Program-made: the position numbers and the translations under genes | Notes under the pieces: generated by a model | Told to the model about the DNA's origin: nothing | Database searches by the model: none | Seen by the model: the letters and a program-made list of their open reading frames with translations, nothing else | Source of the DNA: an uncultured Planctomycetales bacterium | GTDB taxonomy: Bacteria; Omnitrophota; Gorgyraeia; Gygaellales; Profunditerraquicolaceae | Length of the DNA: 35,392 nt | Assembly: GCA_964608955.1 (NCBI GenBank) | Contig: CAZSQC010000004.1 | Span: 1 to 35,392 of the forward strand | Direction of reading: 5' to 3' | Part shown: positions 3,046-19,835 of the stretch, piece after piece | Position numbering within the stretch: position 1 is the stretch's first letter | Layout: every line of letters starts with the position of its first letter

Positions 3046-3578
3046 TTTTCGAGAATTACTACTTCTTCTGTTCCGTCGGTCTCGGATAAACGCACTTCCA
3101 CGGTTTCGTTCTTAGCAGTAGGAATATTTTTACCGACGTAGTCAGCGCGGATAGGGAGCTCCCGATGCCCGCGATCGGTCAAAACCGCAAGCTGTATTGA
3201 TTTAGGCCTGCCGAAGTCTATTAAAGCATCTAAGGCAGCGCGGATAGTCCTACCGGTGTACAGAACATCGTCAACAAGTATCAATATTTTATCGTTAATG
3301 TCAAAATCTATTTCGGTCTTTCTCACCAAGGGCTGGCCTGAAGCTAAGGCCAGATCATCGCGGTATAAAGTAATATCCAATGCGCCGGATAGAACGTCAA
3401 CCCCTTCAATGCTTTTAATCGCATCTGCAAGACGCTTAGCAAGATAAACTCCGCGGTTTCTTATCCCCACTATACAGAGATCCCGGGTCCCTTTGTTTTT
3501 TTCGACTATTTCATGCGCTATCCTCATCAAGGCGCGGTTAATCCCGTCTTTATCCAGAATTTTAGCCTTTTCTTTCAT
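3042..3578 (-). CDS. pyrR: bifunctional pyr operon regulator / uracil phosphoribosyltransferase PyrR
   Basis: 178 aa with PRTase motif [22 protein letters not shown]. Length and N-terminus are PyrR-like. It is first in the pyr operon and is preceded by a PyrR-type attenuator. Confidence 0.9.
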
Positions 3579-3750
3579 AAGTGAGCACTTGCGTTATGGA
3601 GTCCGCTTTTACCGCGGGCGACATAACTTATATGTTTGAACTTACCCGGCACTAATTTATCTAACTCCTTAAGGCATAAAACAAACTGGTGCCGGGTTAA
3701 TTCGCGCATTGGCTTACTCACGCTTTGCTTTCGTAAACCAAGCGCTCATT

Positions 3751-3780
3751 AAAAAAATACCCCAGGCCTTTAGCCTAGGG
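3751..3780 (-). terminator. attenuator terminator of the pyr leader
   Basis: Minus strand reads CCCTAGGC-TAAAG-GCCTGGGG followed by TATTTTTTTAA. That is an 8-bp GC-rich stem (one G-U pair) plus a U-tract, about 37 nt downstream of the PyrR-binding hairpin and about 170 nt upstream of the pyrR ATG. Confidence 0.65.
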
Positions 3781-3817
3781 TTATTGTTATTTATCTTCAT
3801 GTATTGCATTCTTTTCT

Positions 3818-3853
3818 CCACCTTGCCTGCCTCTCCGGGCAGGGTTAAAGGTT
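3818..3853 (-). promoter_or_regulatory. PyrR-binding (anti-antiterminator) RNA hairpin
   Basis: Minus strand reads ACCUUUAACCCUGCCCGGAGAGGCAGGCAAGGUGG. The upper stem CCUGCC/GGCAGG closes a purine-rich loop, and the lower stem is CCUU/AAGG. The three elements I recall as conserved in PyrR binding loops (CUUUAA bulge, GAGAGGC, CAAGG) are all present. Confidence 0.7.
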
Positions 3854-3869
3854 AAATCTTATTTGATGT

Positions 3870-3897
3870 AGTATAACACGGGAGAGGTATTTGTCAA
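3870..3897 (-). promoter_or_regulatory. sigma70-type promoter of the pyrR operon
   Basis: Minus strand reads TTGACA (3897..3892), a 16-nt spacer, then TGtTATACT (extended -10, hexamer 3875..3870). Confidence 0.65.
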
Positions 3898-3905
3898 GTC
3901 TAAAT

Positions 3906-3977
3906 TCTTAAAAAGGGGCGCTAATATTCGGGGCCTTCTTATTGGCTGATAAACCTTTTTGGAAGGATCAGCGCCCC
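3906..3977 (-). terminator. candidate intrinsic terminator of the giant ORF
   Basis: On the minus strand, GGGGCGCT (3977..3970, overlapping the TAG stop) pairs with AGCGCCCC (3922..3915) and is followed by TTTTTAA. An inner CCTTC/GAAGG pair is also possible. The enclosed region is unusually long at 47 nt, so confidence is modest. Confidence 0.4.
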
Positions 3978-6900
3978 TAATTTATCAAAACCGGCTCTTT
4001 TTCTGAAACCCGCATTTTCATTAGTTCCTCCTTGATTTGAGCTGCGGGTTTCTCGGATTCAAGCAAAACTAATAGCTGCTTAAGAGAGCTTTCGGTTGAA
4101 ACACAACGCTCTTCCTCCAGCCTTAAGATGTCGGCTATGCAGCTTAAAACCAAACCTAATCTTTCCTTGCAATCATCGGATTGACATGAAAATAGAATAT
4201 ACTCTCTCATGCGCTCAATGGAAGGAATAATCTTTCCGTTCAGCATATTTTGAATCTTATTCCACTCCATATCTAGCTCTAAAGCATCTTTTTTAACCAC
4301 AAGTTTACCTGGGGTGGTTAAAAAGGCTCCGCCTGGAATAGGCTGCGTATTTATCGGAAGGGAACGGAAGTCTATTCCTCCCTTTTTCCCCTCTTCTTCC
4401 CCCGTAACCGGAATAGCGTCCGGACTGCTCTCTTCCGGAAGATCGAACAGAAACTCTTTCAATACCTCATCCAGCGATCTAACAAAAAATCTTTCTGTCC
4501 CAAAAGCAATTTTTTTCTTTTCCAGAACATCCTTCTTTATTTCCAGCTTCTCTTCATGTGTTAAGTGCCGTGAAATCTGCTGTATAACCCATAGCGAATC
4601 CTCATCAAACTTCCAACCGGTTTTCTCCGCCTTAGTCCTGGTATACAAAACAGCGCAATAATCTATTACTCCTTGTATGGCGTTTTTATTCTCTTTTATC
4701 CATTGCTCTAGCTCCTTTGGATTAGACCTGAATCTTTGAGCATCAGGCATAGTTAAAATCCTATTCACATAGTTTTCATAATCCTGCGGGGTCCTAAAAT
4801 AAATTCTCGCCCTGCCGTCTCTTGTAACTAACAATAAAGCGGTGTGCTTAAGGGGCACGTTTATCTCCGGATGGCCGTAAAACAGGTACCTCCCTGCCTC
4901 ATAGTTACGCACATAATCACGCAAATCAAGAGAAGATTCTCCGTTAACCATCACCGAAACCCCTTTAATCTCTGACCTAGACCTACCGGCTCTTCTCTTC
5001 CAAGGAGCAAAGTCAATATTGTCATAAAAGCGCATTGCTGTAAAAACATCCGCTAGCTCCTCTGGAGACCTGATTACGTTTACCTCCGCTAAATCCCTGG
5101 CAATGATTACTTTTTGTTCTCCGAGTAGCATCTGAACTAAGTCCGAACCGCCGCCATATACTAATTCGTCTTTATCTTCAAGTTCAACAAGTTTAACGAA
5201 AAATGGATCTATCTGGCTAGCATCCACCTCTACTGACCAGGTAAACCAACCGTCTCTCTGTGCACGCGTTCCTTCAATAAAACCCGTTATTATTGCAGGA
5301 GGGTTAACTTTTTTAAGCTCTCCTGATAAGCGAGAGTCTCTTTTTGGAGCTGTTTCACGGACACCTCCTAAGGCAACAGCTGCACTGGAACTTCTTGGGC
5401 TTGACTTTTCTTTTAAGAAAGCCGTTATTTTCCCTGACGGATCAATTCTTTTCCAAGCGGGCTGGGCTTGTAAATCCGTTATTCTACTGTGTATATTCTC
5501 TGCTAGATCCTGCGATTTCCCGGTATAAACAAATCCTTGCTCCGGATCGCTCACCCAGGCACGATACCCTTGATTTTCTGATCCGGTAATCATGATATTA
5601 TCGGGCCTTAAATCAAATACATCTACCAGCCCTGTTGATTCATCAAGCATACGCTCAAAAAGCTCAATCACTGCCTTCATCTGCTGATCATTAAGAGGCC
5701 CTAATTGATCGAGCCTTTTATCCAGCTTAGTAGTAACGATAAAATAAAATCCTTCGGCGTCTTCATTTATGAAACCGGAGTCTACAATATCTGGAGAAAT
5801 GCCTTTTCTTGAGAAAAGTTTCCATGCGGAAATATTAGCATTCCTGCCTGGCTTATTCATCACTCTCAAAACATGTCTGCCATCCGGAAGAGCAAAAACA
5901 AAATTAAACATCCCTCCTCCTAAAGGCTTTCCTAAAGATACCCCGTCCAAAGAGATGTCGCCTTCGTCATCTATTTTTATTCTGCGGGAATACGATCCCT
6001 CCCCGCTATCTTCACCTGCTTGGATGTCTCCTCCTAACCCCCTTCCATCAGCTAGTTCTCTTGCCTGACGCTGGTCACGGGCAAGTAAAACCGGAGCTAA
6101 GGCATCGCGTATCCTCTGGGACTGCTCTGGATGCATGGCTTCTGCCATCATGCCAACATGATGAGCCTGCGCATCATTTAATCCTGACTGAATCGCAAAT
6201 GCTTCTGCTATATCGTGAATTAAGATTCTTTCAGCTGCTGCTTTTCTTTCTTGGGGGTTAAGGCTTGAACCGTTAAGGAGGGAGTTTATTTTATCTTGGT
6301 TTACCGAGACTACGCTGCCGTCTGCGCTGACAGAGACGTAAGAGTCCTGGAGATTATTAATAACGATACGTATCTGCCTGCCGTTTACAGTAACTAATCC
6401 CGAGACAACCGTAACTACGCCCTGGCTATTGACGCTTACCGGTATAACCAGGCTACCGCTATTAAGCGCATCTAATACTGTATCTGCGTAACTGCCCAAT
6501 AATTCCAGATTTCCTGTTTCTACCTGTCCGGGGGCGCCTATTGCTTCAGGGGCTCTTTCTGAAGAAAGGCCCTTCTCACTAATATCCTGCGCACTCCCGC
6601 TCGCATCTTTCTTATTATCCGTAACAATCTCTTTCTTAGCTGTAATGATTGTAAAAGGAACCCCCGTTTCTGAGACAAAAAAACCGTTCTCCGCAAGAAT
6701 ACGCCTTGACTCGCTCCTTCCTTCCCTATATAAAGGTATATCTTCATCCTGGCTGTCAGGAACTATGTCTTCATCTATAGGGGTAAGGTGGCCTCCGTTT
6801 ATAATAAGTGCTAGCTGCGGCAAGCTGGCAATCATCTCCAAAGCAATAACATTAGCTTTGCCGTATACCTCGTGAGGGCCTATATTCACTAATGCTACCG

Positions 6901-9900
6901 CGGGCCTGCTTCCTAAATCATAAGAACCCAAGATATTTTTTAGCTCCGGATCTGCTAAATCCTTCTGAACAATCTCTACCCTTTCACTCTCCTGCGACAA
7001 TAGAATTCTTGACCTGGCAACGCTCTGGGCATTATTCTCAATAAGCACCGCTTTCCTTGCTCCCAGTCTGAGCGCAACTAATGAAAGAAGCCCATCCCCT
7101 GCGCCGGCATCAAAAACAACAGCGTCATTAAAATTGCCTGCGTTAGATATCATGGAAGCTATAACTAAAAGAGCATACCGGCTTATCGGCTGTATGGAGG
7201 TGGCATCATAAAAAGTAGGCACTACGAAAATAACATTTCCTTTATATTTCTCATAAAGCTTAGAGGATTTTAGTTTATTCTGTTTCTCCAGAACCTCTCT
7301 CTTAAGGCCTTCTAAGTCACCACTCTCCCTAGTATCTCCAATAACAACAAAAACAATTGGTCCGAAACGGACAACCCGCGCAGCGCCCTCATGAGTTGCA
7401 TCGGATTCAATAGCATATTCATACCCTCCAGCTTCAAGAGTGCGCGGGAAATAGTCATCGATTTTTTTACCGCCTAAAATACTGTTCACTTCTTCTGCCA
7501 AGGCATGCGCTTCCTGATCCGTAACTTTGGTCATTATCCTCAGGCTTTCTTTCTCTTCTGCTGAACCGCTGGGCTGAGAATTTATAACCAAGCTTGCCAT
7601 TTTCACTGCTTGCTCGCTCACTCTTACAACCTCCCTCCTATAGGAAAGGAGTTCCTCATACCTGTACAAATTAGGATCTTTGCTCGACAAAATACTCTTT
7701 ACAGCCGCTGCCGCATATGATTGCAGGTTAAATACATTAATATCCAAACCTAAGCCATATAAATAATTTTTAATTTCATTTGTAATTAATCCGGGATTAA
7801 CCCGATACATAATATGATAATAATAAAACACCATTATTCTGCTAAAAACCTCTTCCGTCGTACCAAGAAACAAGGCTTCGGAGTCTGTTTCTTCTCCTAA
7901 AGCTATTTTAGCTGCCTCTTCCTTAAAGTAACTCCTGAACAATAAGTGCCCCAAGACTTCATGGAGGATAAGAATATCTTTTGCCGCTGGGTTGATTACC
8001 ATCCCGGAAGAAGTTTTCTCCAAAAGGCTTATATCTACAGCAAGGTAAGCCTTGTCTTTCACTCTCGCCAGCCTAACTTTAAACAAAGGAATATTTGTTC
8101 CGACGGCAGAATTTACAAATTTAATCTCCGGCAATCTTAAACCGCTGATCCCAAGCCTGCTTAGCCAACGGGAAAGATACTCCTTAAGGTCTTTTTCTGC
8201 ATCCGGGATTTCTTCTGCCTTGCCAATCAAGCTTTCGTCTATATTGGACCTGTTGGTCCTTTTACGCATAGTTCTGGCTGTTAATATATAATTTTCGTGC
8301 TCGATCTGCCTGCGCTCAATCTGTCCGTGAAGTTCATCGGCAATAAAGTCGGCCAGCTCTTCCGGAGACTTCATAAAACGCGTAACCTTAATAAACTCAT
8401 TCTTATTCTGCTGATTAATCTCAAGCGGGGGAAGGTTCGCGCGCATCAGGTAATAATCCATAAGCAGCTTCGCCACCCTTCTGTTACCGTCGGAAAAATA
8501 CTGTAGATCAGTAAGGGCAAAGTAAACTAAAGCGGCCTGCATTACGGCAGGCATGCTCTTAAATTCTCCCCCTGCAACATAGAGAGATAAGTTCTGCATA
8601 GCCCTCTTAAGGTCATCTCCTCCTCTTAAAAATCCTTTTACTCTGTCCGTATGTTCAACGTCATGCATACGCATCTTCCCCGCAGAAAAACCGCAAAGGC
8701 TTCTGGCTGCCACTGAATGCAACTGCTCGACATGCTTCATAAAACTGAAGATGTCATCTTCAATAATTACGCCTTTTTCAATCCAATTGTTTACCAACCT
8801 GGACGCGTCATTGATATCCCGCATTTCGCTATGAGGGATATCTTTACGGGCGCTGTTAAGATACTCCAGAATATTCATGTATGCTATCTTGTAATTAATG
8901 CGATCATGGAAATAATATTCAAAAAGGCTGGTAATTTTAGATCTTAAATTAAAGGTATCGCGCACTTTCCAGTCCGAACGCTGATTGATATAGACGTCCC
9001 AGAAAATATTTCTCCAAGGAGCAAGATAAATAACCGTAGTAAAAATTACTATGGGTTTATTTAGGATATAGTCAAAAATCCTTTTGACGCTTTCTTTATC
9101 GCTTATCTGGCTTGTTTTTCGTGCGAATACTTTCGCGAATACTACCGGGTCAAAGAACGGGGCAGGGGAAAACGGTTCCGGATTAGGATTATGGGGAAAT
9201 GCCTCCGGGTTCATTAATGCGGCCAGGTGCATCTTCTTTAAATCTTCTACTATTTCCTCTGCTATTTCCTCTTCCGAAGATGTAAGGGAAATCTGAAGGA
9301 CCAACTGCCTGGCATGCCTTCTGTCTCTTTCTATAAGAAGCGGGGACAAAGCATCCCTGATTTTCTGCGAATTAGCGGGGTACATCGCTTCAGCCATCAT
9401 CGCGGAAAAATGGCTATCCGCTAAAGTATTTCCCAGCTGCAACGAATATGCTTCCGTAATTTCGTGTATTATAATCCTCTCTAAAGCATTTATTCTTTCC
9501 GCGACGCTAAGGCCCGTATTTACAAACATCTGATTAATTTTTTGAAGGTTTAAATGCACCTCTGTTCCGTCTGCACTGACAGACCCCAGCAATAACTGTC
9601 TATTATTAATTACTATTTTTATCCTGCGGTTCTCCACATTAAGAACCATTTCTCTCAAAGAAAGCTCCCCGTTAGTATTGCTTACTACGGGGAAAACCAA
9701 AGCGCCTTTTTTAAAAGCTTCGATTACCGTGTCAGCCGGCAGGCCCAGGGAATCTAAATCGCCGGTAGAAACAACCCCGGAAGCGTACTCAAAGTGCCCT
9801 CTATTTTTTTCAAAAATCTCAAGTAGCTCGTTATCTCCTAACTTACCAACTTCTTCTTTAGACACTCCCAGCAAAGATGCAATTGTCTCCTGTGTTGATT

Positions 9901-12900: not shown

Positions 12901-15900
12901 CTCCAGGGCTCAGCTTATTAGCCATATCAAACACCGCTACCCAAACCGACTTGGAGAAGAGCATTTGTACATCTTTGTCATCAAGAGCATCCATTAATCC
13001 TGACATAGCGTTCATATAAACAGCGAACAACTTGCCTTCTTTTTCCCCAAGCATTTCTGAAAGTTTCTGCATAAAATTATAGATGACATATTCCGGAATA
13101 TTTTCACTGAGACGCTTCTCCGATGTAATCAGAAAACGGTGTAAGGCCGCGACATTGTTTTTTAATTCTTCGGCGGTGTCGCTATGATTAACGGCATTGG
13201 CTAGTCCGTGTGAACCTCCATAAGATTCATCAAAAAGGTTGTCATCTCTTCTTGAAATAAACTCCGCGGCAAAGTTAAATACCGCATCACAAGCTAAAGT
13301 TGCTTGCGCTGATTTGCTGGAGAAGAGAAACTGCACTATAATATCCAAGATACTCTTAGCTACGCTAAGCGCGCGATGATGCGCAATTCGCGCAGCATTA
13401 GAATCTCCTTTGTGTTTTAGAGAATATATATTTAAAATTTCTTTGGTTTTATTATATACTTTATCGAGAAACGCTTTTAGCTCTTCCTCTCTTTTAGCTT
13501 TATCCGGGATGTTTTCAAGCATACGGTCTGCGATACCCATAACCCTGGATAGAAAAGAAGGTAAATATAACTCGGAGTATTCCATTTCTCCGAATTCTTC
13601 TGTAATGGAACCTGTAAATCTTAATAGCATCTCGGAATAAGATAAGAACTCTTTCTTATCTTCGGTCTCCTCTAAGATTCTGGAAAACCCGAGATAGACA
13701 AAACCGTACCTAGAGTAAGATTCGGTGATATATTTACCAAAGAGGCCCAAGTGCGCTTCTAGCTCAGAGACACTGCTTAAGAACCTCAAGTGCGAAGACA
13801 AAAGTCTTTCTAAATCCCACTTCTCTTTTACTTTCTCGGCGTGGGATTTTAAGAATTCCTCGAGCACCGTTGTTACCCTTTCTGTGCTTTCTCCTGTGCG
13901 TGATATAAAGCTGCGAAACTCTTCTCTCGCAGCAACCTTTTGAAGAACTTCCGAGACCTCTCCTTCTCCTTCGTATCCTACTCCGTCTTTACCCCAGGCA
14001 TCTAATCCTCCGTATTCTATCCTGGCTCCTGCGCTACGGTCAGAAGTTAAAGAACCCCAAAGCTTATGCATTGCCTCGCGTAACTGGCTGTCTTCTCCTA
14101 TCGCCTCTGCTTCTGCGATCATTCCTTCTGTATGCGCTTCTTTCGCACTTAAACCCCTGCCAATAGCAGCATCTTCCGCCATTTCATGCTGCCTTAAGAC
14201 ATTCGCCACCTTAAGAACAATAGGGTCATCTTCCGCAACCCCTAGCACAGAAGCAATCTCTCTGGTATTAACGATAATTTCTCCGCGCGCATTTACCCTA
14301 ACAAATCTTCCGTCGATTCTTCCGGCGAGGTTTTTCAATACAGCTTGCCCTCCCTTGACAGAGGTTGTTTCAGGAGGTCCTCGGCGAGAATCAACCTTAG
14401 CCATAAAAGCATTGAGGCTATTAATAAAATACTCGGTAAAATCAGTTATCGGCTTTTCATTTCCGGCATTACCTCCCAGATTCCAGAACATATTTCTTCC
14501 TTTACTAAGGAAAAGGTCTTTTATTTCTTTTTTTGACATGGAATTTACAAGAGCATGGGCATCTTCCAACAAGCCCAACGCATCCTTTCTGAAGGCCGGA
14601 TGCTTAAGAACCTCGTCAAAAATAAAATTATCCGTTCCCGGTGCCCCGTAATCTTTAAAACCGTACTGCGACATAATCATCGCCAGAAAAAGCAATCTAT
14701 GCTGTGCATTAGCAGATTTTCCCCCTATATACAGCCTATTATCTCCGATATCAACCATTACCGCTTCCTGGTTCCCCTTACGGATAATAAAATTGCCTCC
14801 ATGCATGTCACGCGGAGCCATGCCTCCTAATCCGAAAGTTATAGTAAGGAGGGCGTAAACAATGCTCCTGCGTAAGCGCTCGGTAAGTAAACCCTTATTA
14901 AGTAACCCCTGGGCTGTTTCTCCTTCAATAAACTCCTCGATATACCAACGCCTTCCGTCGGCAGAGACACCGCTCCAGGCGAATTTAGGCACTCCTCTCC
15001 CGTCTAGCCTCTTAAGGTTTTGCAACTCATGGGAAGTGATATCGTTTTTCCCTACTTCCTTCTTGGCCGCCAGAAGTATATTTATCTTTTCTCCAGATAC
15101 CAACGCAAACTGCATCCTATAAACATATTTGTGTGCGCCTTCAGCGAAATAGGAAAGATCCACATCCTGTGAAATATCAGCCCATTGGAGATCTTTAATA
15201 CCGGATATTTTGCGTAATATTGACAGCAGGTCCTCCCTCGAAATCCCGGTAATTAAATCCCTTGAAACGCTTAACAGTGTATTATATTTCTCCCAGGATC
15301 TTTCATCGGTTGAGTCAAAATCAAATTTTGCGATATGGATATTTAGTTTATGACTTACGGGGGCTGCTTCAGTACTGCGCCCAGACGCAACGGATTGAAC
15401 TGGCGCGCTTTCATTTAATACCGTCAGAAGAATGATTAAATCGAGCATCTGCTGCTGGGCATTTAGACCTAAGAAATCCTCCTGTCTATCTGCCTCAACG
15501 CCTTGGCCGGATTCGCGCTGCCTACTAAGCCAGAGCTCATGCAGCGCTTCCCCGGCAGCTAAGACAACCTTACCTGCGGGATTCGTCCCGAATTGAGCGC
15601 TTAATTTCTGTCCATTCTTTAATTGTTGCAGTGCGGATTCTAATGCCCTGCGAAATTCTGCTGTTGAGATGCCCGCAGTCTTTATTAATTCAAGAGCCCT
15701 TCTTACTGACGCAATATTATCATTCTGTATGCGTTCAGGAAGAGCAGCAAAACTTACTACCCTTGATATATCTATTCCGTCTTCAACGTTAACTCCCGCG
15801 CCTAAGGCCAGCTGAGTTGCCAGATGCACTTTCCATGCCAGCTTCTTTTCTTCTCCCGAAGCAGTATCCTGCTGCGTTGCAATGACCTTTGCTCTTGGCA

Positions 15901-17053
15901 AAGGGACCCCACTAGCTTCTATAACATGTCCGTTAGCAAGGCCCGCTGGCAAAGCGCTATTTCCGGGGCTTACTACCTGCGCAACGGTATCGAGGTTGCC
16001 TATTGCAATGCCTCCCGAATAGTAACTTCTTAAAACCCGGCCAAAAGCCGATTGCTGGGAGACTTTATAATTATATTCGCCATCTTTAAATGACTTCTGG
16101 TACTCTTTAAAATAATCATCTTTTAGCCAGGCATCCTTTGAATAAAACCTGTTGATGTCTTTCCCGTCAATCATAGAAGCATAAAACCCATCGGTACCGC
16201 GGAATTTTTTCTTAAACCACTGCGCTAATATTAAAGAATAGTAGACCTGCCTTAACCTGGCGTAGCGCTTCGATGTATTAATTTCCCTGCTAATGTTCGG
16301 AATTATTGTCTCTTTAAGAATTTCTGCGGCATATTCATTTAGCTGCTTAAGGCGTTCATCTTTAAAACTGTAGTCTGCCCCTCCCGGGAAAGGATTATTT
16401 TTGTTCAGATAGTCCTGTTCCAGCATTACTTTTAATGTTGCTTTATAGATATAGGCATTTTCACTTGTTTCCCGGATTATAATTTCATCGGGGACAATCC
16501 AAGGCCGGATTAGTGTCGGTATGGTCACGTTCTGGCTTCCGAAAAGCTCCTCTGCCTTCGCGTAAAGCCTTTCCCAGTATTGCTTTCCTTCCGGTGTCTC
16601 GGGAGAGGTCGCTTTAGCGGTATCTTTTTTTAACTGGACGTCCGCCTCCAGAAAAACTTTTCCGATATCGGTTTTTTCAACAAGGGGGTCGATAATATTA
16701 CCCGGCGAATCGGGCCTTAAATTAACCCAGAAGGAATCATTAGGAAGACTTATGCCGATAAGAAAAAAGCTTAGCAGCTCTTCCGTTGCTTTCTCGGCAG
16801 AAGGCCTTGATAAATTTTTCAGGTTTTCCTTATCAAGAAGAAGCTGAAAGTTATTCGTTGCCGGGCTATACTGCATAAACCTTAAGTGGACGGGACGGAA
16901 ACTGGAGGGGAAAAAGGTATTTCTGAAGGCTGTAAGCTGCCGGGAAATATCAAGCTGTCCCGCAATTTGAGCAAAACCCGATTGCTCAAAAGAAAGTAAC
17001 AAGCATAGAGAAATGGCAATTAACTTTAGGAAAAAAGATTGTTTTATTTTCAT
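3977..17053 (-). CDS. giant multidomain protein (4358 aa) with signal peptide; function unknown (two kinase-like, one Fic-like, one SAM-MTase-like domain and 4 copies of an unassigned module)
   Basis: The ORF is an uninterrupted 13,077 nt. My residue count was cross-checked against nucleotide anchors at six motifs, and each codon matched. Domain evidence is listed in the sub-features below. Confidence 0.95.
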   Translation of the reverse strand: MKIKQSFFLKLIAISLCLLLSFEQSGFAQIAGQLDISRQLTAFRNTFFPSSFRPVHLRFMQYSPATNNFQLLLDKENLKNLSRPSAEKATEELLSFFLIGISLPNDSFWVNLRPDSPGNIIDPLVEKTDIGKVFLEADVQLKKDTAKATSPETPEGKQYWERLYAKAEELFGSQNVTIPTLIRPWIVPDEIIIRETSENAYIYKATLKVMLEQDYLNKNNPFPGGADYSFKDERLKQLNEYAAEILKETIIPNISREINTSKRYARLRQVYYSLILAQWFKKKFRGTDGFYASMIDGKDINRFYSKDAWLKDDYFKEYQKSFKDGEYNYKVSQQSAFGRVLRSYYSGGIAIGNLDTVAQVVSPGNSALPAGLANGHVIEASGVPLPRAKVIATQQDTASGEEKKLAWKVHLATQLALGAGVNVEDGIDISRVVSFAALPERIQNDNIASVRRALELIKTAGISTAEFRRALESALQQLKNGQKLSAQFGTNPAGKVVLAAGEALHELWLSRQRESGQGVEADRQEDFLGLNAQQQMLDLIILLTVLNESAPVQSVASGRSTEAAPVSHKLNIHIAKFDFDSTDERSWEKYNTLLSVSRDLITGISREDLLSILRKISGIKDLQWADISQDVDLSYFAEGAHKYVYRMQFALVSGEKINILLAAKKEVGKNDITSHELQNLKRLDGRGVPKFAWSGVSADGRRWYIEEFIEGETAQGLLNKGLLTERLRRSIVYALLTITFGLGGMAPRDMHGGNFIIRKGNQEAVMVDIGDNRLYIGGKSANAQHRLLFLAMIMSQYGFKDYGAPGTDNFIFDEVLKHPAFRKDALGLLEDAHALVNSMSKKEIKDLFLSKGRNMFWNLGGNAGNEKPITDFTEYFINSLNAFMAKVDSRRGPPETTSVKGGQAVLKNLAGRIDGRFVRVNARGEIIVNTREIASVLGVAEDDPIVLKVANVLRQHEMAEDAAIGRGLSAKEAHTEGMIAEAEAIGEDSQLREAMHKLWGSLTSDRSAGARIEYGGLDAWGKDGVGYEGEGEVSEVLQKVAAREEFRSFISRTGESTERVTTVLEEFLKSHAEKVKEKWDLERLLSSHLRFLSSVSELEAHLGLFGKYITESYSRYGFVYLGFSRILEETEDKKEFLSYSEMLLRFTGSITEEFGEMEYSELYLPSFLSRVMGIADRMLENIPDKAKREEELKAFLDKVYNKTKEILNIYSLKHKGDSNAARIAHHRALSVAKSILDIIVQFLFSSKSAQATLACDAVFNFAAEFISRRDDNLFDESYGGSHGLANAVNHSDTAEELKNNVAALHRFLITSEKRLSENIPEYVIYNFMQKLSEMLGEKEGKLFAVYMNAMSGLMDALDDKDVQMLFSKSVWVAVFDMANKLSPGADNLQRTFLELALLFKEMSAADIYLESAETYLWSFCEHERNLPALKEKVRAFLEFKTSLTKKFPGKEHQALINIALRNCIRHFSELSPVSFASTLASAEKLFEGIMKSGNNSIAEIFIENFGHYKSILLSPEKIEIAIAIMGAGFIPTEGLVEYAFGKKDLKGALEDFARVKRAISEGGFRLDKINDPQGKALYIDVEYSHFVAVLLENGFGLNRANYNNYRQFISGEHRPGEVHLGAAEIAEVDYAIFEAKRLLEFIDKLISQGRAVNREVVVVANMSYGGFVIDIIEEELARRGVRIIRTKIGSTESHQNPWVFREDLFSEGDLEYLVNNQPIMVVVDGTQHLVDREGDEGKRGRYPDAYQGYRNFALAFNEAIGSILGDQAARNRGELLGKDRTFVSAFGEDFLRLKNKIAAILRRISGEKLYYDFMFWNPGGLRSILRENRQPLAEVDNVRPAQVKGPTIIFVNAVLVDADVPATLKNLHLGHEHEPAFFDDNNIIKEIFLSVTERGTQFEKKLKPIIRSRYPLVSGVLKESNSFEGAPGQVETGNLELLGSYADTVLDALNSGSLVIPVSVNSQGVVTVVSGLVTVNGRQIRIVINNLQDSYVSVSADGSVVSVNQDKINSLLNGSSLNPQERKAAAERILIHDIAEAFAIQSGLNDAQAHHVGMMAEAMHPEQSQRIRDALAPVLLARDQRQARELADGRGYGGENSSAGNKRRSMVIRLAIAAIAAFPLTFFIFSHREALPEQKTEEVSPAASGDISKKGPLTIKLPVSSKQQEGAPDRRQISRNTKDNHLYAQIEALVKGYDLSGLQDILFEEGSVEDETGAVRLTINWNNLSILINVINGMISDGISIQDKNFINRVIKHMSGQVLIYANVYHKQQGEPNQEADNFARDFIELRGRIVSEGLKGRDATYSITDSIDYIKYIQSATKISPDLVPESAFQSLREIFKNEPSLYSSVVYALSSYIKSGRDSVGARSAFEVLLSIFADSKTAEELESTQETIASLLGVSKEEVGKLGDNELLEIFEKNRGHFEYASGVVSTGDLDSLGLPADTVIEAFKKGALVFPVVSNTNGELSLREMVLNVENRRIKIVINNRQLLLGSVSADGTEVHLNLQKINQMFVNTGLSVAERINALERIIIHEITEAYSLQLGNTLADSHFSAMMAEAMYPANSQKIRDALSPLLIERDRRHARQLVLQISLTSSEEEIAEEIVEDLKKMHLAALMNPEAFPHNPNPEPFSPAPFFDPVVFAKVFARKTSQISDKESVKRIFDYILNKPIVIFTTVIYLAPWRNIFWDVYINQRSDWKVRDTFNLRSKITSLFEYYFHDRINYKIAYMNILEYLNSARKDIPHSEMRDINDASRLVNNWIEKGVIIEDDIFSFMKHVEQLHSVAARSLCGFSAGKMRMHDVEHTDRVKGFLRGGDDLKRAMQNLSLYVAGGEFKSMPAVMQAALVYFALTDLQYFSDGNRRVAKLLMDYYLMRANLPPLEINQQNKNEFIKVTRFMKSPEELADFIADELHGQIERRQIEHENYILTARTMRKRTNRSNIDESLIGKAEEIPDAEKDLKEYLSRWLSRLGISGLRLPEIKFVNSAVGTNIPLFKVRLARVKDKAYLAVDISLLEKTSSGMVINPAAKDILILHEVLGHLLFRSYFKEEAAKIALGEETDSEALFLGTTEEVFSRIMVFYYYHIMYRVNPGLITNEIKNYLYGLGLDINVFNLQSYAAAAVKSILSSKDPNLYRYEELLSYRREVVRVSEQAVKMASLVINSQPSGSAEEKESLRIMTKVTDQEAHALAEEVNSILGGKKIDDYFPRTLEAGGYEYAIESDATHEGAARVVRFGPIVFVVIGDTRESGDLEGLKREVLEKQNKLKSSKLYEKYKGNVIFVVPTFYDATSIQPISRYALLVIASMISNAGNFNDAVVFDAGAGDGLLSLVALRLGARKAVLIENNAQSVARSRILLSQESERVEIVQKDLADPELKNILGSYDLGSRPAVALVNIGPHEVYGKANVIALEMIASLPQLALIINGGHLTPIDEDIVPDSQDEDIPLYREGRSESRRILAENGFFVSETGVPFTIITAKKEIVTDNKKDASGSAQDISEKGLSSERAPEAIGAPGQVETGNLELLGSYADTVLDALNSGSLVIPVSVNSQGVVTVVSGLVTVNGRQIRIVINNLQDSYVSVSADGSVVSVNQDKINSLLNGSSLNPQERKAAAERILIHDIAEAFAIQSGLNDAQAHHVGMMAEAMHPEQSQRIRDALAPVLLARDQRQARELADGRGLGGDIQAGEDSGEGSYSRRIKIDDEGDISLDGVSLGKPLGGGMFNFVFALPDGRHVLRVMNKPGRNANISAWKLFSRKGISPDIVDSGFINEDAEGFYFIVTTKLDKRLDQLGPLNDQQMKAVIELFERMLDESTGLVDVFDLRPDNIMITGSENQGYRAWVSDPEQGFVYTGKSQDLAENIHSRITDLQAQPAWKRIDPSGKITAFLKEKSSPRSSSAAVALGGVRETAPKRDSRLSGELKKVNPPAIITGFIEGTRAQRDGWFTWSVEVDASQIDPFFVKLVELEDKDELVYGGGSDLVQMLLGEQKVIIARDLAEVNVIRSPEELADVFTAMRFYDNIDFAPWKRRAGRSRSEIKGVSVMVNGESSLDLRDYVRNYEAGRYLFYGHPEINVPLKHTALLLVTRDGRARIYFRTPQDYENYVNRILTMPDAQRFRSNPKELEQWIKENKNAIQGVIDYCAVLYTRTKAEKTGWKFDEDSLWVIQQISRHLTHEEKLEIKKDVLEKKKIAFGTERFFVRSLDEVLKEFLFDLPEESSPDAIPVTGEEEGKKGGIDFRSLPINTQPIPGGAFLTTPGKLVVKKDALELDMEWNKIQNMLNGKIIPSIERMREYILFSCQSDDCKERLGLVLSCIADILRLEEERCVSTESSLKQLLVLLESEKPAAQIKEELMKMRVSEKEPVLIN
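5519..5947 (-). other. protein-kinase-like domain 2 (aa ~3703-3845)
   Basis: It contains the Gly-rich loop LGKPLGGGMFNFVF, the catalytic loop VFDLRPDNIMI (D-L-[KR]-P-x-N as in Hanks-type kinases, codons verified at 5614..5600) and a downstream WVSDPEQ as a possible DFG equivalent. Confidence 0.55.
6037..6539 (-). repeat. R module copy (aa 3506-3672); 503-bp perfect direct repeat, downstream copy in gene orientation
   Basis: It is identical to 10780..11282. Identity stops sharply at both ends. Flanking codons are I/E on the N-terminal side and L/Y on the C-terminal side, after which only weak protein similarity continues (LGGDIQAG... versus YGGENSSAG...). Confidence 0.97.
6644..7246 (-). other. 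class I SAM-dependent methyltransferase domain, PrmA-like (aa ~3270-3470)
   Basis: Motif I is VVFDAGAGDGLLSLVALRLGA (codons verified at 7117..7109). The acidic post-I motif is KAVLIENN. AVALVNIG resembles the PrmA VVANI motif. Confidence 0.7.
8414..8851 (-). other. Fic/DOC-like domain with degenerate active-site motif (aa ~2735-2880)
   Basis: The motif region is ALVYFALTDLQYFSDGNRRVAKLLMDYYLMRANLPPL (codons 8503..8468 verified). Against the canonical H-x-F-x-[DE]-G-N-G-R-x-x-R it reads Q-Y-F-S-D-G-N-R-R-V-A-K, so the catalytic His is Gln, Gly8 is Arg and the last Arg is Lys. Confidence 0.6.
9302..9784 (-). repeat. R module, diverged copy (aa ~2424-2584)
   Basis: It aligns end to end with the perfect copies at about half identical residues by eye: ADTV, LV.PV, I.IVINN, SVSADG, KIN, ERI.IH[DE]I.EA, MMAEAM.P..SQ.IRDAL.P.L..RD.R.AR.L. 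The H-E codons were verified at 9466..9461. Confidence 0.85.
10679..10738 (-). other. internal hydrophobic, signal-anchor-like segment (aa 2106-2125)
   Basis: NKRRS-MVIRLAIAAIAAFPLTFFIF-SHREALPEQKTEE. The 20 residues are almost entirely hydrophobic (one Arg near the N-terminal end), with a basic N-flank and an acidic C-flank. The Met codon is at 10738..10736 and is preceded by AAGAGG plus 6 nt. Confidence 0.6.
10780..11282 (-). repeat. R module copy (aa 1925-2091); 503-bp perfect direct repeat, upstream copy in gene orientation
   Basis: It is nucleotide-identical to 6037..6539 by my line-by-line comparison. The offset is 4743 nt (3 x 1581), so the repeat is in frame. The identical 66-aa shadow ORFs on the plus strand (10804..11004 and 6061..6261) confirm it. 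Confidence 0.97.
14045..14356 (-). repeat. R module, most divergent copy (aa ~900-1003)
   Basis: VLRQHEMAEDAAIGRGLSAKEAHTEGMIAEAEAIGEDSQLREAM aligns with ILIHDIAEAFAIQSGLNDAQAHHVGMMAEAMHPEQSQRIRDAL of the other copies. The shared pattern is H-[DE]-x-A-E, AI, GL, AH, GM-x-AEA, Q-x-R-x-A. It is preceded by a beta-like stretch, FVRVNARGEIIVN. Confidence 0.6.
14729..15160 (-). other. protein-kinase-like domain 1 (aa ~632-775), APH/RIO/ABC1-like
   Basis: It contains EGAHKYVYRM (nucleotide-loop region), ILLAAKKE (beta3 Lys candidate), a YIEEFIEGE hinge, a PRDMHGGNFII catalytic loop (D-x-H-x-x-N as in HADPHPGN/HGDLHPGN families) and VMVDIGDN (DFG-like). The codons for D-M-H were verified at 14809..14801. 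Confidence 0.55.
16967..17053 (-). other. N-terminal Sec-type signal peptide of the giant protein (aa 1-29)
   Basis: MKIKQSFFLKLIAISLCLLLSFEQSGFAQ|IAG has a basic n-region, a hydrophobic core and a small-residue G-F-A cleavage-like site. Confidence 0.7.
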
Positions 17054-19747: not shown

Positions 19748-19756
19748 AAATTTTAA

Positions 19757-19831: not shown

Positions 19832-19835
19832 AAGC

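What the first reader, a model, noticed from the sequence alone, without database searches (positions are those of the whole stretch)
3977..17053. 4358-aa signal-peptide-bearing protein combining kinase-like, Fic-like and methyltransferase domains: candidate undescribed giant multi-effector
This is the only non-housekeeping gene in the window. It lies about 11 kb from the origin, between rsmI and the pyr operon. My residue count was anchored on nucleotides. The domain order runs as follows: signal peptide (aa 1-29); unassigned region (30-630); kinase-like 1 (632-775); R module (900-1003); a long, probably helical, unassigned block (1040-1920); R (1925-2091); hydrophobic segment (2106-2125); unassigned (2130-2420); R (2424-2584); a Pro-rich linker (NPEAFPHNPNPEPFSPAPFFDP); Fic-like (2735-2880); an HEVLGH segment (3031-3036); PrmA-like SAM-MTase (3270-3470); R (3506-3672); kinase-like 2 (3703-3845); and an unassigned C-terminal 500 aa ending in a Cys-containing tail. 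Kinase-like, Fic and methyltransferase folds are the enzyme classes that secreted bacterial effectors commonly use to modify target proteins. Finding all three in one exported polypeptide, separated by a repeated module, suggests a polymorphic multi-effector logic. That would be analogous in concept, not in sequence, to MARTX-type toxins. More than half of the protein matches nothing I recognise.
Basis: partly seen in the sequence, partly recalled or inferred. Interest (0 to 1): 0.8.

Follow-up and report, generated by a model that had tools for sequence, protein, structure and literature searches.

The report
Capped modular giant protein of Omnitrophota
This is a real 4,358-residue exported protein from an Omnitrophota bacterium, and it belongs to a very large, apparently undescribed family in which one conserved head domain and one conserved tail domain frame ever-changing enzyme-like modules, so it extends this phylum's known habit of building huge multi-enzyme proteins rather than being a one-off toxin.

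Summary
The ORF (3977-17053, minus strand, 4358 aa) is real and sits about 11 kb from dnaA among housekeeping genes. These calls hold up: the signal peptide, four R repeats, one hydrophobic helix, a Pfam-level Fic domain, a PRMT-like SAM-methyltransferase domain and kinase-like domain 1. Three calls need correction. The Fic motif lacks the catalytic His (QYFSDGNRRVAK), and an orthologue conserves that loss. Kinase-like 2 has no profile support. "HEVLGH" is HExxxH, not HExxH.

Residues 1-365 ("N-cap") and 4222-4358 ("C-cap", starting GGIDFRxLP) are the constant ends of an Omnitrophota-specific family. A scan found 479 loci in species-representative genomes, with several copies per genome and sizes from 0.6 to over 3.7 kaa. 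The cargo between the caps is unrelated from member to member (kinases, methyltransferases, HEAT, transketolase and others). In 28 species a family member occupies the same rsmI-adjacent, origin-proximal slot with different cargo.

The R module is rare (23 clusters among 1.84 billion). It models confidently as a minigluzincin-like fold with an invariant HxxxE...H...E motif.

My best reading is a Sec-exported modular host-interaction protein, a small relative of the published Omnitrophota multi-enzyme giant proteins. The caps, the slot and R appear undescribed. The effector role is an inference.

The parts
16970..17053 (-). Signal peptide, aa 1-28 (MKIKQSFFLK / LIAISLCLLLSF / EQSGFA|Q). The c-region motif FEQSGFAQ is itself conserved across the family.
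   Evidence: Sequence. Hydropathy peak at aa 3-21. Family N-termini and consensus. No SignalP tool was available; the cleavage site is inferred from the small residues at -3 (G) and -1 (A).
15959..16969 (-). N-cap, aa 29-365: conserved family-defining N-terminal domain of mixed alpha/beta fold, with no database family.
   Evidence: 55-65% identity to hundreds of Omnitrophota proteins, E down to 1e-205. 479 loci in species-representative genomes. About 80 invariant columns. No Pfam, NCBIfam or PDB sequence hit. The AF2 model of a minimal member has pLDDT 75-90 in this domain, with no Foldseek hit at E<0.5 in PDB or BFVD.
15257..15958 (-). Variable linker or unassigned block, aa 366-599.
   Evidence: Only weak similarity to P0002 at its end. 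No family hits.
14474..15256 (-). Kinase-like module 1 (K1), aa 600-860, core 632-775. Candidate catalytic residues are K664, E676, D749, N754 and D768-I-G770.
   Evidence: Homologues sit directly after the N-cap in P0001, P0002, L001, L083 and L084, and also occur in L032, L037, L004, L015 and L008. Invariant columns map to the protein-kinase catalytic set. PADLOC PD-T4-6 E 1.4e-4. Pfam ABC1 E 0.07. PDB profile hits are mostly kinases but each has E>=0.13.
13964..14365 (-). R1, aa 897-1030: divergent copy of the R module (motif HEMAE at aa 956).
   Evidence: Self-comparison. Alignments A2 and A5.
11303..13936 (-). Long helical block, aa 1040-1917, probably HEAT-like repeats.
   Evidence: 51% identity over 964 aa to P0140, carried on locus L083. 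That product has weak precomputed HEAT hits. No Pfam hit for the window sequence itself.
10769..11302 (-). R2, aa 1918-2095: R module with H2032-D-I-A-E2036 ... H2050 ... E2057.
   Evidence: AF2 model pLDDT 90.3, pTM 0.86. The top ten Foldseek hits are all minigluzincins, best E 0.089, prob 0.66.
10679..10735 (-). Single internal hydrophobic helix, aa 2107-2125, flanked by KRR on the N-side and an acidic stretch on the C-side.
   Evidence: Kyte-Doolittle peak of 2.27, the only internal peak above 1.9.
9809..10678 (-). Orphan block U2, aa 2126-2415.
   Evidence: No homologue in local sets or in the metagenome scan. Only a sub-threshold Pfam Endotoxin_N hit, E 0.0074.
9299..9808 (-). R3, aa 2416-2585: R module (motif HEITE at aa 2530), 48% identical to R2 and R4.
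8273..9286 (-). Fic-fold module, aa 2590-2927, including the Pro-rich lead-in. Pfam Fic covers aa 2776-2869. The degenerate motif QYFSDGNRRVAK lies at aa 2851-2862 (window 8468-8503).
   Evidence: Pfam PF02661 27.5 bits against a gathering score of 24. FICD alignment places Q where the catalytic H should be. 50% identical to positional orthologue P0139, which has QYFANGNRRVAK.
7580..8206 (-). Block containing HEVLGH (aa 3031-3036, window 7946-7963). This is an HExxxH segment preceded by beta-strand-like sequence.
   Evidence: Sequence only. No profile hit. Analogous short HExxH or HExxxH segments were seen by eye in relatives P0122, P0125, P0126, P0129 and L005.
6566..7579 (-). Class I SAM-methyltransferase module, aa 3159-3496. 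Motif I VVFDAGAGDG lies at aa 3312-3321.
   Evidence: Pfam PrmA, MTS, RrnaAD and Methyltransf_25 all fall just under threshold on the same stretch. Module shared with P0035 (42%) and P0139 (36-40%). Profile A7 hits PRMT1, PRMT8 and CARM1 at E 3.5e-8 to 3e-6.
6026..6538 (-). R4, aa 3506-3676: near-identical copy of R2 (513 bp, 99.4% nt identity).
   Evidence: An independent contig, L081, starts inside this repeat.
5519..5947 (-). Its motifs are GGGMFNFV (aa 3712) and DLRPDN (aa 3814).
   Evidence: Resemblance at motif level only. No Pfam hit, no PDB hit at E<=10, and no hhalign relation to K1. The only homologue is P0133, which is 99% identical.
4391..5518 (-). Orphan block, aa 3846-4221.
   Evidence: Only P0133, on contig L081 from a near-identical strain, matches.
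3980..4390 (-). C-cap, aa 4222-4358: conserved helical C-terminal domain that starts GGIDFRSLPI, contains conserved Cys residues, and ends ...KEPVLIN.
   Evidence: Present at the extreme C-terminus of 84 of 120 database hits and 41 of 47 complete ORFs from genomes. Consensus. Modelled as a helical bundle with pLDDT about 80.

Best explanation
The gene encodes a Sec-exported modular protein of an Omnitrophota bacterium. It belongs to a phylum-specific family whose constant parts are three: a signal peptide with a conserved FEQSGFAQ c-region, an N-terminal domain of about 335 aa (N-cap), and a helical C-terminal domain of about 135 aa (C-cap, GGIDFRxLP...).

Between the caps the family carries interchangeable cargo. 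This member occupies a conserved origin-proximal slot (dnaN-gyrB-gyrA-glmS-rsmI-[family gene]-pyrR-pyrB-pyrC). Its cargo is a mosaic of cassettes that occur separately in smaller relatives:
- a protein-kinase-like domain with an intact catalytic set;
- a HEAT-like helical block;
- a Fic-fold domain that has lost the catalytic His;
- a PRMT-like SAM methyltransferase;
- two orphan blocks.

The cargo is punctuated by four copies of the R module, a minigluzincin-like fold with an invariant HxxxE...H...E motif.

What is shown: the anatomy, the family, the slot, the cargo turnover and the fold assignments. What is inferred: the caps handle export, anchoring or assembly. The cargo acts outside the cell, on or in a host or prey cell that supplies ATP and SAM, in line with the episymbiotic or predatory lifestyle reported for the phylum. 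The R modules either cut the polyprotein or serve as metal-binding adaptors between cassettes.
For: - Family and caps.
- Taxonomy: names and record titles are almost all Candidatus Omnitrophota.
- Cargo diversity: precomputed Pfam and the census (Metallophos+FHA, MTases, HD, transketolase, TAL, FBPase, guanylate kinase, HEAT, TPR, PP2C, GNAT).
- Conserved slot: 28 of 71 loci have rsmI directly upstream, and glmS, gyrA, gyrB and dnaN recur. P0139 lies in the identical slot and shares Fic, R, MTase and both caps.
- Cargo turnover within the slot.
- Colinear orthologue of aa 1-1913 in another MAG.
- Mosaic origin of the cassettes.
- Domain tests: Fic; MTase; K1; R (38, 63, 73, 76).
- Export signal and single hydrophobic helix.
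- Published context: Omnitrophota long proteins are mostly signal-peptide and/or TM-bearing multi-enzyme mosaics. Peptides of a giant ORF increased 3-fold in V. archaeovorus cells attached to larger cells.
Against: - No experiment or predictor confirms export or signal-peptide cleavage.
- With a cleaved signal peptide and one stop-transfer helix, the C-terminal half, including the C-cap, would be cytoplasmic. In TM-free relatives the C-cap would be exported. The KRR flank on the N-side of the helix also contradicts that orientation, so the topology is unresolved.
- Much family cargo is ordinary cytoplasmic metabolism (transketolase, transaldolase, FBPase, guanylate kinase). That is odd for secreted effectors.
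- The Fic domain is probably not an AMPylase.
- The R fold match is sub-significant (best E 0.089), and its motif is not HExxH. Position +1 alternates E and D, which argues against a classical zincin mechanism.
- No secretion-system genes are nearby.
- Nothing links this particular organism to a host.
Confidence: 0.5

Rival explanations
1. The protein is a membrane-tethered or otherwise intracellular scaffold. The hydrophobic N-terminus anchors it rather than exporting it. The family is the cell's own way of clustering metabolic and regulatory enzymes at the membrane, with the kinase, methyltransferase and Fic-like domains acting on the bacterium's own proteins.
For: Family cargo includes core cytoplasmic enzymes and cofactor-dependent domains: transketolase, TAL, FBPase, guanylate kinase, GNAT, Nudix, MTases and kinases. 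ATP and SAM are not available outside the cell. The gene sits in a strictly housekeeping, origin-proximal operon-like context on the leading strand. The charge distribution around the TM helix fits an N-side-in orientation.
Against: The N-terminus has the canonical n-h-c layout with small residues at -3 and -1, and positive charges precede the hydrophobic core. That layout directs the following chain outward. Most relatives have no second hydrophobic segment to bring the chain back in. The 2026 preprint abandoned the intracellular reading for the giant multi-enzyme proteins on topology predictions.
Confidence: 0.2
2. The protein is a surface-coat or adhesion protein whose enzyme-like domains are mostly pseudoenzymes used as binding modules. 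It would be structural rather than catalytic, analogous to the proposed coat role of the V. archaeovorus giant protein.
For: The Fic domain lacks its catalytic His, yet it is conserved at about 50% identity with the degenerate motif intact, as expected for a binding pseudoenzyme. R has a non-canonical motif with E/D variation. There is a long HEAT-like block, and HEAT and TPR cargo are frequent in the family. The literature proposes coat and adhesin roles for giant Omnitrophota ORFs.
Against: K1 keeps every catalytic residue invariant across seven divergent homologues. The MTase keeps an intact SAM-binding motif. No adhesin-type domains (Ig, cadherin, discoidin, dockerin, lectin) were found.
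Confidence: 0.2
3. The 4358-aa architecture is partly an assembly artefact. The two 513-bp near-identical R copies caused a mis-join, so the interval between them (U2-R3-Fic-MTase) does not belong in this gene.
For: R2 and R4 are 99.4% identical at the DNA level. Independent contigs break exactly at R boundaries: L081 starts inside R4, and L083 ends five residues before R2. A metagenome scan with the U2 block found no second copy.
Against: The frame stays open across all four junctions. The interval has no caps of its own, so it could not be a separate family gene. The positional orthologue P0139 has the same order N-cap ... Fic ... R ... MTase ... C-cap in one gene on a 30-kb contig. L081 confirms the R4-K2-C-cap-pyrR-pyrB junctions at 99.2% identity.
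Confidence: 0.05

Closest known systems
Omnitrophota multi-enzyme giant proteins ('Archaeovorins' of West-Roberts et al. 2023, bioRxiv 10.1101/2023.11.21.568195; 'class 1 multi-enzyme' and 'SP+TM' long proteins of Nielsen & Lui 2026, bioRxiv 10.64898/2026.06.07.730766)
   Same: Same phylum. Same logic of stringing many otherwise cytoplasmic enzyme domains (methyltransferases, kinases, NUDIX, HEAT, TPR, PPDK and others) into one polypeptide that carries a signal peptide and/or TM helices. Internal domain repeats are the rule. Sequences are mostly unique while the architecture type recurs.
   Different: This protein is 4.4 kaa, below the 10 kaa and 30 kaa cut-offs of those catalogues. It has one TM helix rather than dozens. 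It has no glycosyltransferase, glycoside hydrolase, C39, S8 or SecA-like domains. Those papers do not mention the N-cap, the C-cap, the rsmI slot or an R-like module. I could not test whether the >=10 kaa giants carry the caps.
MARTX toxins
   Same: A single large polypeptide that carries several unrelated enzyme modules, with the idea of internal processing.
   Different: No RTX or GD-rich repeats and no cysteine protease domain. An N-terminal Sec signal replaces a C-terminal type I secretion signal. There are no adjacent secretion genes. The candidate processing module is zincin-like and present in four copies.
Polymorphic toxin or effector families with constant trafficking domains (Rhs, CdiA, PE/PPE type logic)
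   Same: Constant domain(s) combined with rapidly exchanged cargo, many paralogues per genome, and cargo replacement at an orthologous locus.
   Different: Both ends are constant and the variable part is internal. No YD/Rhs or filamentous haemagglutinin repeats. No downstream immunity gene; the next gene is pyrR. Cargo includes metabolic enzymes and repeat scaffolds, not nucleases or deaminases.
Fic/DOC family (Pfam PF02661; FICD, AvrAC/XopAC)
   Same: Profile match above the Pfam gathering score. Alignment to FICD runs through the core helices and the motif loop.
   Different: The motif is QYFSDGNRRVAK instead of HxFx(D/E)GNGRxxR. The catalytic His is absent, the second Gly is Arg and the final Arg is Lys. 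An orthologue conserves this degenerate form.
Minigluzincins (selecase, proabylysin, projannalysin; M48/M56-type minimal metallopeptidase scaffold)
   Same: The confident R model has a beta-sheet, then a long helix bearing H-[E/D]-x-x-E, then a second helix bearing H and E. Its ten best PDB matches are all minigluzincins. BlaR1 (M56) and an M48-like peptidase appear lower in the list.
   Different: Foldseek E is 0.09-1, TM about 0.45 on the target, and RMSD is high. The zinc motif is HxxxE, not HExxH. The would-be catalytic Glu is Asp in R2 and R4. There is no sequence-level hit to any peptidase family. R is embedded as a repeated internal module rather than being a free enzyme.
Protein arginine methyltransferases / PrmA (class I SAM methyltransferases)
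   Same: The SAM-binding motif I and post-I region align to PRMT1, PRMT8 and CARM1 with E down to 3.5e-8. PrmA and MTS are the best Pfam families.
   Different: Only about 60 residues align. The PRMT double-E and THW loops were not examined. The module has a long N-terminal extension of about 130 aa, shared only with P0035 and P0139.

Membership tests
Omnitrophota N-cap/C-cap family (defined here) | N-terminal signal peptide with the conserved FEQSGFAQ region, followed by the N-cap domain of about 335 aa | tested here: met
   58-65% identity over aa 1-365 to hundreds of proteins. Invariant columns are shared.
Omnitrophota N-cap/C-cap family (defined here) | C-cap domain starting GGIDFRxLP at the extreme C-terminus | tested here: met
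   aa 4222-4358 aligns at 35-56% identity to the C-termini of 84 of 120 hits and 41 of 47 complete genomic ORFs.
Omnitrophota N-cap/C-cap family (defined here) | Occupies the rsmI-adjacent origin-proximal slot (subset of the family) | tested here: met
   The window has the order dnaN-gyrB-gyrA-glmS-rsmI-ORF-pyrR-pyrB-pyrC. The same order holds in L005, L082 and 26 further loci.
Fic/DOC (PF02661) | Profile match above the curated threshold | tested here: met
   27.5 bits against a gathering score of 24, aa 2776-2869. FICD in PDB at E 3e-5.
Fic/DOC (PF02661) | Catalytic motif HxFx(D/E)GNGRxxR with the catalytic His (motif taken from established knowledge of the family) | tested here: not met
   The aligned segment reads QYFSDGNRRVAK. 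Orthologue P0139 reads QYFANGNRRVAK.
Class I SAM-dependent methyltransferase (PRMT/PrmA-like) | Significant profile similarity across the SAM-binding Rossmann motif I and post-I | tested here: met
   Family profile A7 against PDB gives PRMT1 at E 3.5e-8, 36 bits. The single sequence falls just below Pfam thresholds (PrmA 21.0 vs 22).
Class I SAM-dependent methyltransferase (PRMT/PrmA-like) | PRMT-specific double-E loop and THW loop, which define arginine specificity | not tested
   The alignment covers only the motif I region. No structure model was made for this module.
Protein-kinase-like fold (K1, aa 600-860) | Conserved catalytic set: beta3 Lys, alphaC Glu, D-x4-N catalytic loop and DxG | tested here: met
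   K664, E676, D749, N754, D768 and G770 are invariant in seven homologues at 22-39% identity.
Protein-kinase-like fold (K1, aa 600-860) | Statistically significant profile match to a kinase family | tested here: inconclusive
   PADLOC PD-T4-6 E 1.4e-4. Pfam ABC1 E 0.07. In the PDB profile search about 46 of 55 hits are kinases aligned in register, but the best kinase E is 0.13.
Protein-kinase-like fold (K2, aa 3703-3845) | Any profile or sequence match to a kinase family | tested here: not met
   No Pfam hit at E<=10. No PDB hit at E<=10. hhalign against the K1 profile gives probability 0.2%. Only motif-level resemblance remains (GGGMFNFV, DLRPDN).
Minigluzincin / zincin metallopeptidase (R module) | Zincin fold: beta-sheet plus active-site helix plus following ligand helix | tested here: inconclusive
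   Model pLDDT 90.3. The top ten Foldseek hits are all minigluzincins, but E is 0.089-1.0 and prob <=0.66.
Minigluzincin / zincin metallopeptidase (R module) | HExxH zinc-binding motif | tested here: not met
   The invariant motif is H-[E/D]-x-x-E, with H and E on the next helix.
Archaeovorin (West-Roberts et al. 2023) | Giant size (gene >90 kb, >=30 kaa) with many TM helices | tested here: not met
   13.1 kb, 4358 aa, one internal hydrophobic helix.
Archaeovorin (West-Roberts et al. 2023) | Domain set including glycosyltransferases, glycoside hydrolases, peptidases, methylases and NUDIX | tested here: not met
   Only the methyltransferase is present. No GT, GH or NUDIX by Pfam.
MARTX toxin | RTX/GD-rich repeats, a cysteine protease domain, and type I secretion without an N-terminal signal peptide | tested here: not met
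   No such Pfam or NCBIfam hits. An N-terminal signal peptide is present. No T1SS genes among the neighbours.
Rhs/CdiA-type polymorphic toxin | YD/Rhs or FHA-type repeats, a C-terminal variable toxin, and a downstream immunity gene | tested here: not met
   No repeat-family hits. The C-terminus is the conserved part. The downstream gene is pyrR.

The most novel reading that the evidence does not exclude
N-cap and C-cap define a previously unrecognised, Omnitrophota-wide delivery system for polymorphic cargo. The conserved signal peptide and N-cap route the protein to the cell surface or into a host or prey cell. The C-cap (GGIDFRxLP...) is a sorting or assembly signal. The R modules are a new HxxxE-type mini-zincin that cuts the polyprotein into separate enzymes after delivery. 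The rsmI-adjacent origin-proximal slot would then be a hot spot where cargo cassettes are shuffled, and the >=10 kaa giant proteins of the phylum would be the extreme end of the same system.
Probability: 0.2. Interest if true: 0.85.

Novelty: new variant of a known kind. Interest (0 to 1): 0.6.

Why it matters
Omnitrophota are uncultured, tiny, probably host-dependent bacteria, notable for the longest proteins known. Nobody knows how those proteins are built, exported or used. This locus shows that the phenomenon is not confined to the >=10 kaa outliers. A continuous family of 0.6 to over 4 kaa shares the same two end domains and the same signal peptide, and swaps cargo freely, even at one conserved chromosomal position next to the origin.

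This gives three concrete, small and testable handles:
- N-cap, about 335 aa.
- C-cap, about 135 aa.
- The R module, about 170 aa, with four invariant putative metal ligands.

These can be expressed, localised and assayed, which is impractical for a 40-150 kaa protein. It also supplies three new domain definitions that would annotate hundreds of 'hypothetical proteins'. Finally, it flags a conserved His-less Fic domain as a likely pseudoenzyme.

Tried and rejected
- The whole-protein homologue search timed out. An exact-sequence contig look-up of the giant found nothing.
- A word-index search with the R alignment found only one fragment. The full HMMER search was needed to find the 23 carriers.
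- The word-index search with aa 3677-4215 returned only the near-identical fragment P0133, so K2 and the last orphan block could not be profiled.
- K2 against PDB and against the K1 profile gave nothing. I therefore drop 'kinase-like 2' as a supported call.
- The N-cap/C-cap model against PDB and BFVD gave no hit at E<0.5. The weak top hits to NheA/ClyA-type toxins and colicin Ia (prob <=0.11) are not evidence. The N-cap/C-cap profile against PDB sequences gave only spurious hits inside the variable middle.
- The R profile against PDB sequences gave nothing meaningful.
- The metagenome scan with the U2 block found nothing. The scan with the whole cargo region found only K1-containing relatives.
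- I considered RTX/MARTX, Rhs, adhesin, T9SS-CTD and lipoprotein readings and rejected them. There are no matching profiles, the C-cap is helical rather than a beta-sandwich, and the Cys in the signal peptide is not in a lipobox.
- I considered a Fic/Doc toxin-antitoxin or defence-system reading. PADLOC gives only generic domain-level hits (SoFic, PD-T4-6, mad2), and the context is housekeeping.
- Literature searches for a description of the caps found nothing relevant.
Full report
**1. The observation**

The window contains one uninterrupted ORF at 3977..17053 on the minus strand, 4358 codons long.

Every other sizeable gene is housekeeping:
- Upstream on the same strand: dnaA (27052-28389), dnaN, a DciA-like ORF, gyrB, a small membrane ORF, gyrA, tRNA-Glu, glmS and rsmI (17239-17892).
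- Downstream: pyrR, pyrB and pyrC.
- On the other side of the skew switch, on the plus strand: yidC, parA, parB, ndk, yicC, gmk and coaBC.

GC skew changes sign at about 28-29 kb.

**2.

*Signal peptide.* The N-terminus reads MKIKQSFFLK-LIAISLCLLLSF-EQSGFA|QIAG. It has a positive n-region, a 12-residue hydrophobic core, and small residues at -3 and -1. I had no SignalP tool, so cleavage is inferred.

*R modules.* Tiled self-BLAST finds four copies at aa 897-1030, 1918-2095, 2416-2585 and 3506-3676. R2 and R4 are 99% identical, including at the DNA level (513 bp, 99.4%). R3 is 48% identical and R1 about 31%.

*Hydrophobic segment.* Only aa 2107-2125 exceeds a Kyte-Doolittle mean of 1.9 inside the protein.

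*Fic.* Pfam PF02661 passes its gathering score (27.5 vs 24 bits, aa 2776-2869). NCBIfam XopAC and PDB FICD also match. But in the FICD alignment the motif HPFIDGNGRTSR is opposite QYFSDGNRRVAK (aa 2851-2862). The catalytic His is Gln, the second Gly is Arg and the last Arg is Lys.

*Methyltransferase.* Four class I MTase Pfam families hit the same stretch just under threshold (PrmA 21.0 vs 22 bits). A profile of the module with its three homologues hits PRMT1 at E 3.5e-8, and PRMT8, CARM1 and PRMT3 below 1e-4. The call stands at fold level.

*Kinase-like 1.*
- Homologues exist in at least ten family proteins.
- In a 7-sequence alignment at 22-39% identity the invariant residues are K664, E676, D749, N754, D768 and G770. 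These are exactly the beta3 Lys, alphaC Glu, D-x4-N and DxG of protein kinases.
- PADLOC's kinase-containing PD-T4-6 model matches at E 1.4e-4.
- Pfam ABC1 matches at E 0.07.
- In the PDB profile search about 46 of 55 hits are protein kinases aligned in register. None is individually significant; the best kinase E is 0.13.
- I accept 'kinase-like, probably active' with moderate confidence.

*Kinase-like 2.* There is no Pfam hit at E<=10, no PDB hit at E<=10, and no relation to the K1 profile. The only homologue is a 99% identical fragment. GGGMFNFV and DLRPDN look kinase-like by eye, but the call is unsupported.

*HEVLGH.* This is HExxxH and has no profile support.

**3.

Nearly all that carry a name are Candidatus Omnitrophota. 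They are 55-64% identical to aa 1-365 and unrelated beyond that.

The same proteins end in a domain 35-56% identical to aa 4222-4358, always at their extreme C-terminus. This holds for 84 of 120 hits; the rest are mostly partial. I call these domains N-cap and C-cap.

The N-cap has about 80 invariant columns across 29-39 members, and even the signal-peptide c-region (FEQSGFAQ) is conserved. The C-cap starts with GGIDFRxLPIxTQ and has conserved Cys residues.

Neither cap matches Pfam-A (2025), NCBIfam (2026) or PDB sequences.

I made an AF2 model of a minimal 612-aa member consisting only of N-cap, linker and C-cap. It gives pLDDT 75-90 for a mixed helix and beta-hairpin N-cap, and about 80 for a helical C-cap. 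It has no Foldseek match at E<0.5 in PDB or BFVD.

**4. Size, spread and cargo of the family**

A scan of one genome per GTDB species found 479 confirmed N-cap loci. Essentially all are in Omnitrophota MAGs or SAGs, and several genomes contribute 2-5 loci to the top 80 alone.

Among 82 copies in those 80 loci there are 47 complete ORFs of 181-3692 aa. Of these, 41 end in the C-cap. So 4358 aa is at the upper end of a continuum rather than an outlier. Most members have no internal hydrophobic helix.

Cargo is extremely diverse: metallophosphatase+FHA, several methyltransferase types, HD, a complete transketolase, transaldolase, FBPase, guanylate kinase, PP2C, GNAT, HEAT, TPR, Nudix, MidA, Pkinase, CN-hydrolase and PEP-utilising domains.

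**5. A conserved chromosomal slot with replaceable cargo**

I clustered neighbouring ORFs across the 80 loci. Of the 71 loci with upstream sequence, 28 have rsmI immediately upstream on the same strand. Across the 80 loci, glmS recurs in 26, gyrA in 23, gyrB in 21 and dnaN in 15; where the flank reaches downstream, pyrR, pyrB and pyrC follow.

The slot members range from 1591 aa to over 3708 aa. Outside the caps they share almost nothing with the window protein at BLAST level. The exceptions are a K1-like domain in L037 and part of the helical block in L018. L005, for example, has the identical gene order but an 1867-aa member with quite different cargo.

**6. Relatives that share cargo: the giant is a mosaic**

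- P0139 (2310 aa, GCA_964543845.1) sits in the same slot: glmS-rsmI-[P0139]-pyrR-pyrB-pyrC-...-carAB. Its order is N-cap - Fic module (50% identical, motif QYFANGNRRVAK) - R-like - MTase module - C-cap. The His-less Fic is therefore conserved, not decaying.
- L083 (GCA_026387355.1) is colinear with aa 1-1913: N-cap, K1, R1 and the helical block, at 33-65% identity. It has two frameshifts, and its contig stops five residues before R2.
- P0001, P0002, L001 and L084 carry N-cap followed by K1.
- P0035 carries the MTase module.
- P0122 (4808 aa) shares only the caps and R.
- L081, a JGI contig (sample 3300010357), is 99.2% identical to window 2473-6141. It starts inside R4 and independently confirms R4-K2-orphan-C-cap-pyrR-pyrB.
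- U2 (aa 2126-2415) and aa 3677-4221 remain orphans.

**7. The R module**

A full HMMER search of 1.84 billion cluster representatives found R in only 23 proteins. Most are 1.3-5.8 kaa. Some carry the caps and some do not.

Across 18 copies H2032 and E2036 (HxxxE) are invariant, and H2050 and E2057 nearly so. Position 2033 is E or D.

The AF2 model is confident (pLDDT 90.3, pTM 0.86). It shows a small beta-sheet, a long helix carrying H-[E/D]-x-x-E, and a following helix carrying H and E.

The ten best Foldseek PDB matches are all minigluzincins: selecase, proabylysin and projannalysin. BlaR1 (M56), an M48-like peptidase and IrrE appear further down. The statistics are weak, however: best E 0.089, prob 0.66, target TM about 0.45.

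My reading is that R has a zincin-like scaffold with a variant ligand set (His/Glu instead of His/His). Whether it is a protease, a metal-binding adaptor or neither is not shown. Its position between cassettes (K1|R1|helical|R2-TM|U2|R3|Fic-MTase|R4|K2) is what suggests processing.

**8. Mechanism**

*Shown:* the anatomy, the family, the slot, cargo turnover and the fold-level identities.

*Inferred:* the conserved signal peptide and caps handle export, anchoring or assembly, and the cargo acts outside the producer. ATP- and SAM-dependent cargo would need a host or prey cytoplasm. That fits the episymbiotic or predatory lifestyle described for the phylum and the attachment-induced giant protein of V. 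archaeovorus.

*Unresolved:*
- Topology is the main problem. A cleaved signal peptide plus one stop-transfer helix would leave aa 2126-4358, including the C-cap, in the cytoplasm. In TM-free relatives the C-cap would be outside.
- The KRR flank lies on the 'wrong' side of the helix for that orientation.
- The metabolic cargo of many relatives (transketolase and others) sits more naturally inside the cell.

For these reasons I give the exported host-interaction reading 0.5, an intracellular scaffold 0.2, a coat or pseudoenzyme reading 0.2, and an R-repeat mis-assembly 0.05.

**9. Comparison with what is known**

The closest known kind is the Omnitrophota multi-enzyme long or giant proteins: Archaeovorins, and the class 1 / SP+TM proteins of the 2026 catalogue. 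This protein works like them, but it fails their size, TM and domain-set definitions.

Those papers do not mention the caps, the rsmI slot or an R-like module in any passage I searched.

The protein is not a MARTX, Rhs/CdiA, adhesin or canonical Fic enzyme (see the membership table).

**10. Verdict**

The interpretation needs reframing. This is not a unique giant toxin. It is a large, mosaic member of a big and apparently unnamed Omnitrophota family with constant caps and shuffled cargo, sitting in a conserved origin-proximal slot.

Novelty: a new variant of a known kind. Interest: 0.6. The individual protein is unexceptional for the phylum, but the caps, the slot, the conserved His-less Fic and the HxxxE mini-zincin-like R module are small, testable entry points into a long-standing puzzle.

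Noticed in passing
window 22270-23058 (-): A 262-aa polytopic membrane protein ORF lies between gyrB and gyrA. It has no Pfam hit and only a sub-threshold NCBIfam YciC hit (E 0.007). In the syntenic locus L005, gyrB and gyrA are directly adjacent, so this looks like a lineage-specific insertion into the gyrBA pair.
   Followed up: partly
window 3759-3897 (-), between the giant's stop and pyrR: The 397-nt spacer holds a strong sigma-70-like promoter (TTGACA-16-TGnTATACT, 11 of 12 matches). About 90 nt downstream is a 10-bp GC-rich hairpin followed by a T-run. This is the layout expected of a PyrR-controlled attenuator leader, but no Rfam family reached its gathering score.
   Followed up: partly
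window 6026-6538 and 10769-11302; L081 start; L083 end: The 513-bp R2/R4 repeat (99.4% identical) coincides with contig breaks in independent assemblies of relatives. L081 begins inside R4, and L083 ends five codons before R2. This suggests that related genomes also carry near-identical R copies, through recent duplication or gene conversion, and that such genes are systematically fragmented in short-read MAGs.
   Followed up: partly
L083:14-8837 (GCA_026387355.1, JAPLLW010000002.1): The colinear orthologue of the giant's first 1913 residues is split into three overlapping called genes (302, 963 and 1711 aa) by two frameshifts. It is either a pseudogene or carries assembly errors in a repetitive gene.
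   Followed up: no
P0125 C-terminus; P0125 and P0127 N-termini: More distant N-cap relatives exist at 30-34% identity, with '...DLWVNL...' in place of 'SFWVNLRPD'. P0125 ends with three short GGIDLR motifs instead of a full C-cap. This hints that GGID[FL]R is the functional core of the C-terminal signal and that the superfamily is wider than the 479 loci counted.
   Followed up: no
window 25536-25847 (-): A 103-aa ORF between dnaN and gyrB overlaps the dnaN end by 26 nt. It has a sub-threshold DciA match (Pfam PF05258, 20.8 vs 24 bits). It may be a short DciA-like helicase-loading factor in the classical recF position.
   Followed up: no
window aa 2190-2303 of the giant (about 10145-10486, -): The orphan block U2, just after the hydrophobic helix, gives a weak match to the delta-endotoxin N-terminal pore-forming helical domain (Pfam PF03945, E 0.0074, 16.5 vs 21.3 bits). 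It is below threshold but is placed suggestively next to the only TM-like segment.
   Followed up: no
window 19756-19832 (-) and 35339-35392 (+): tRNA-Glu(UUC) lies between gyrA and glmS. A second tRNA, cut off by the window end, follows the flavoprotein (coaBC-like) gene.
   Followed up: yes
L022 and L079 (same contig JBDRKE010000033.1); L076; L066: Some genomes carry two family genes within 5-20 kb of each other. L076 has two N-caps 5 kb apart. L066 has a second, 33%-identical N-cap directly upstream. This indicates local duplication as well as dispersed paralogy.
   Followed up: no
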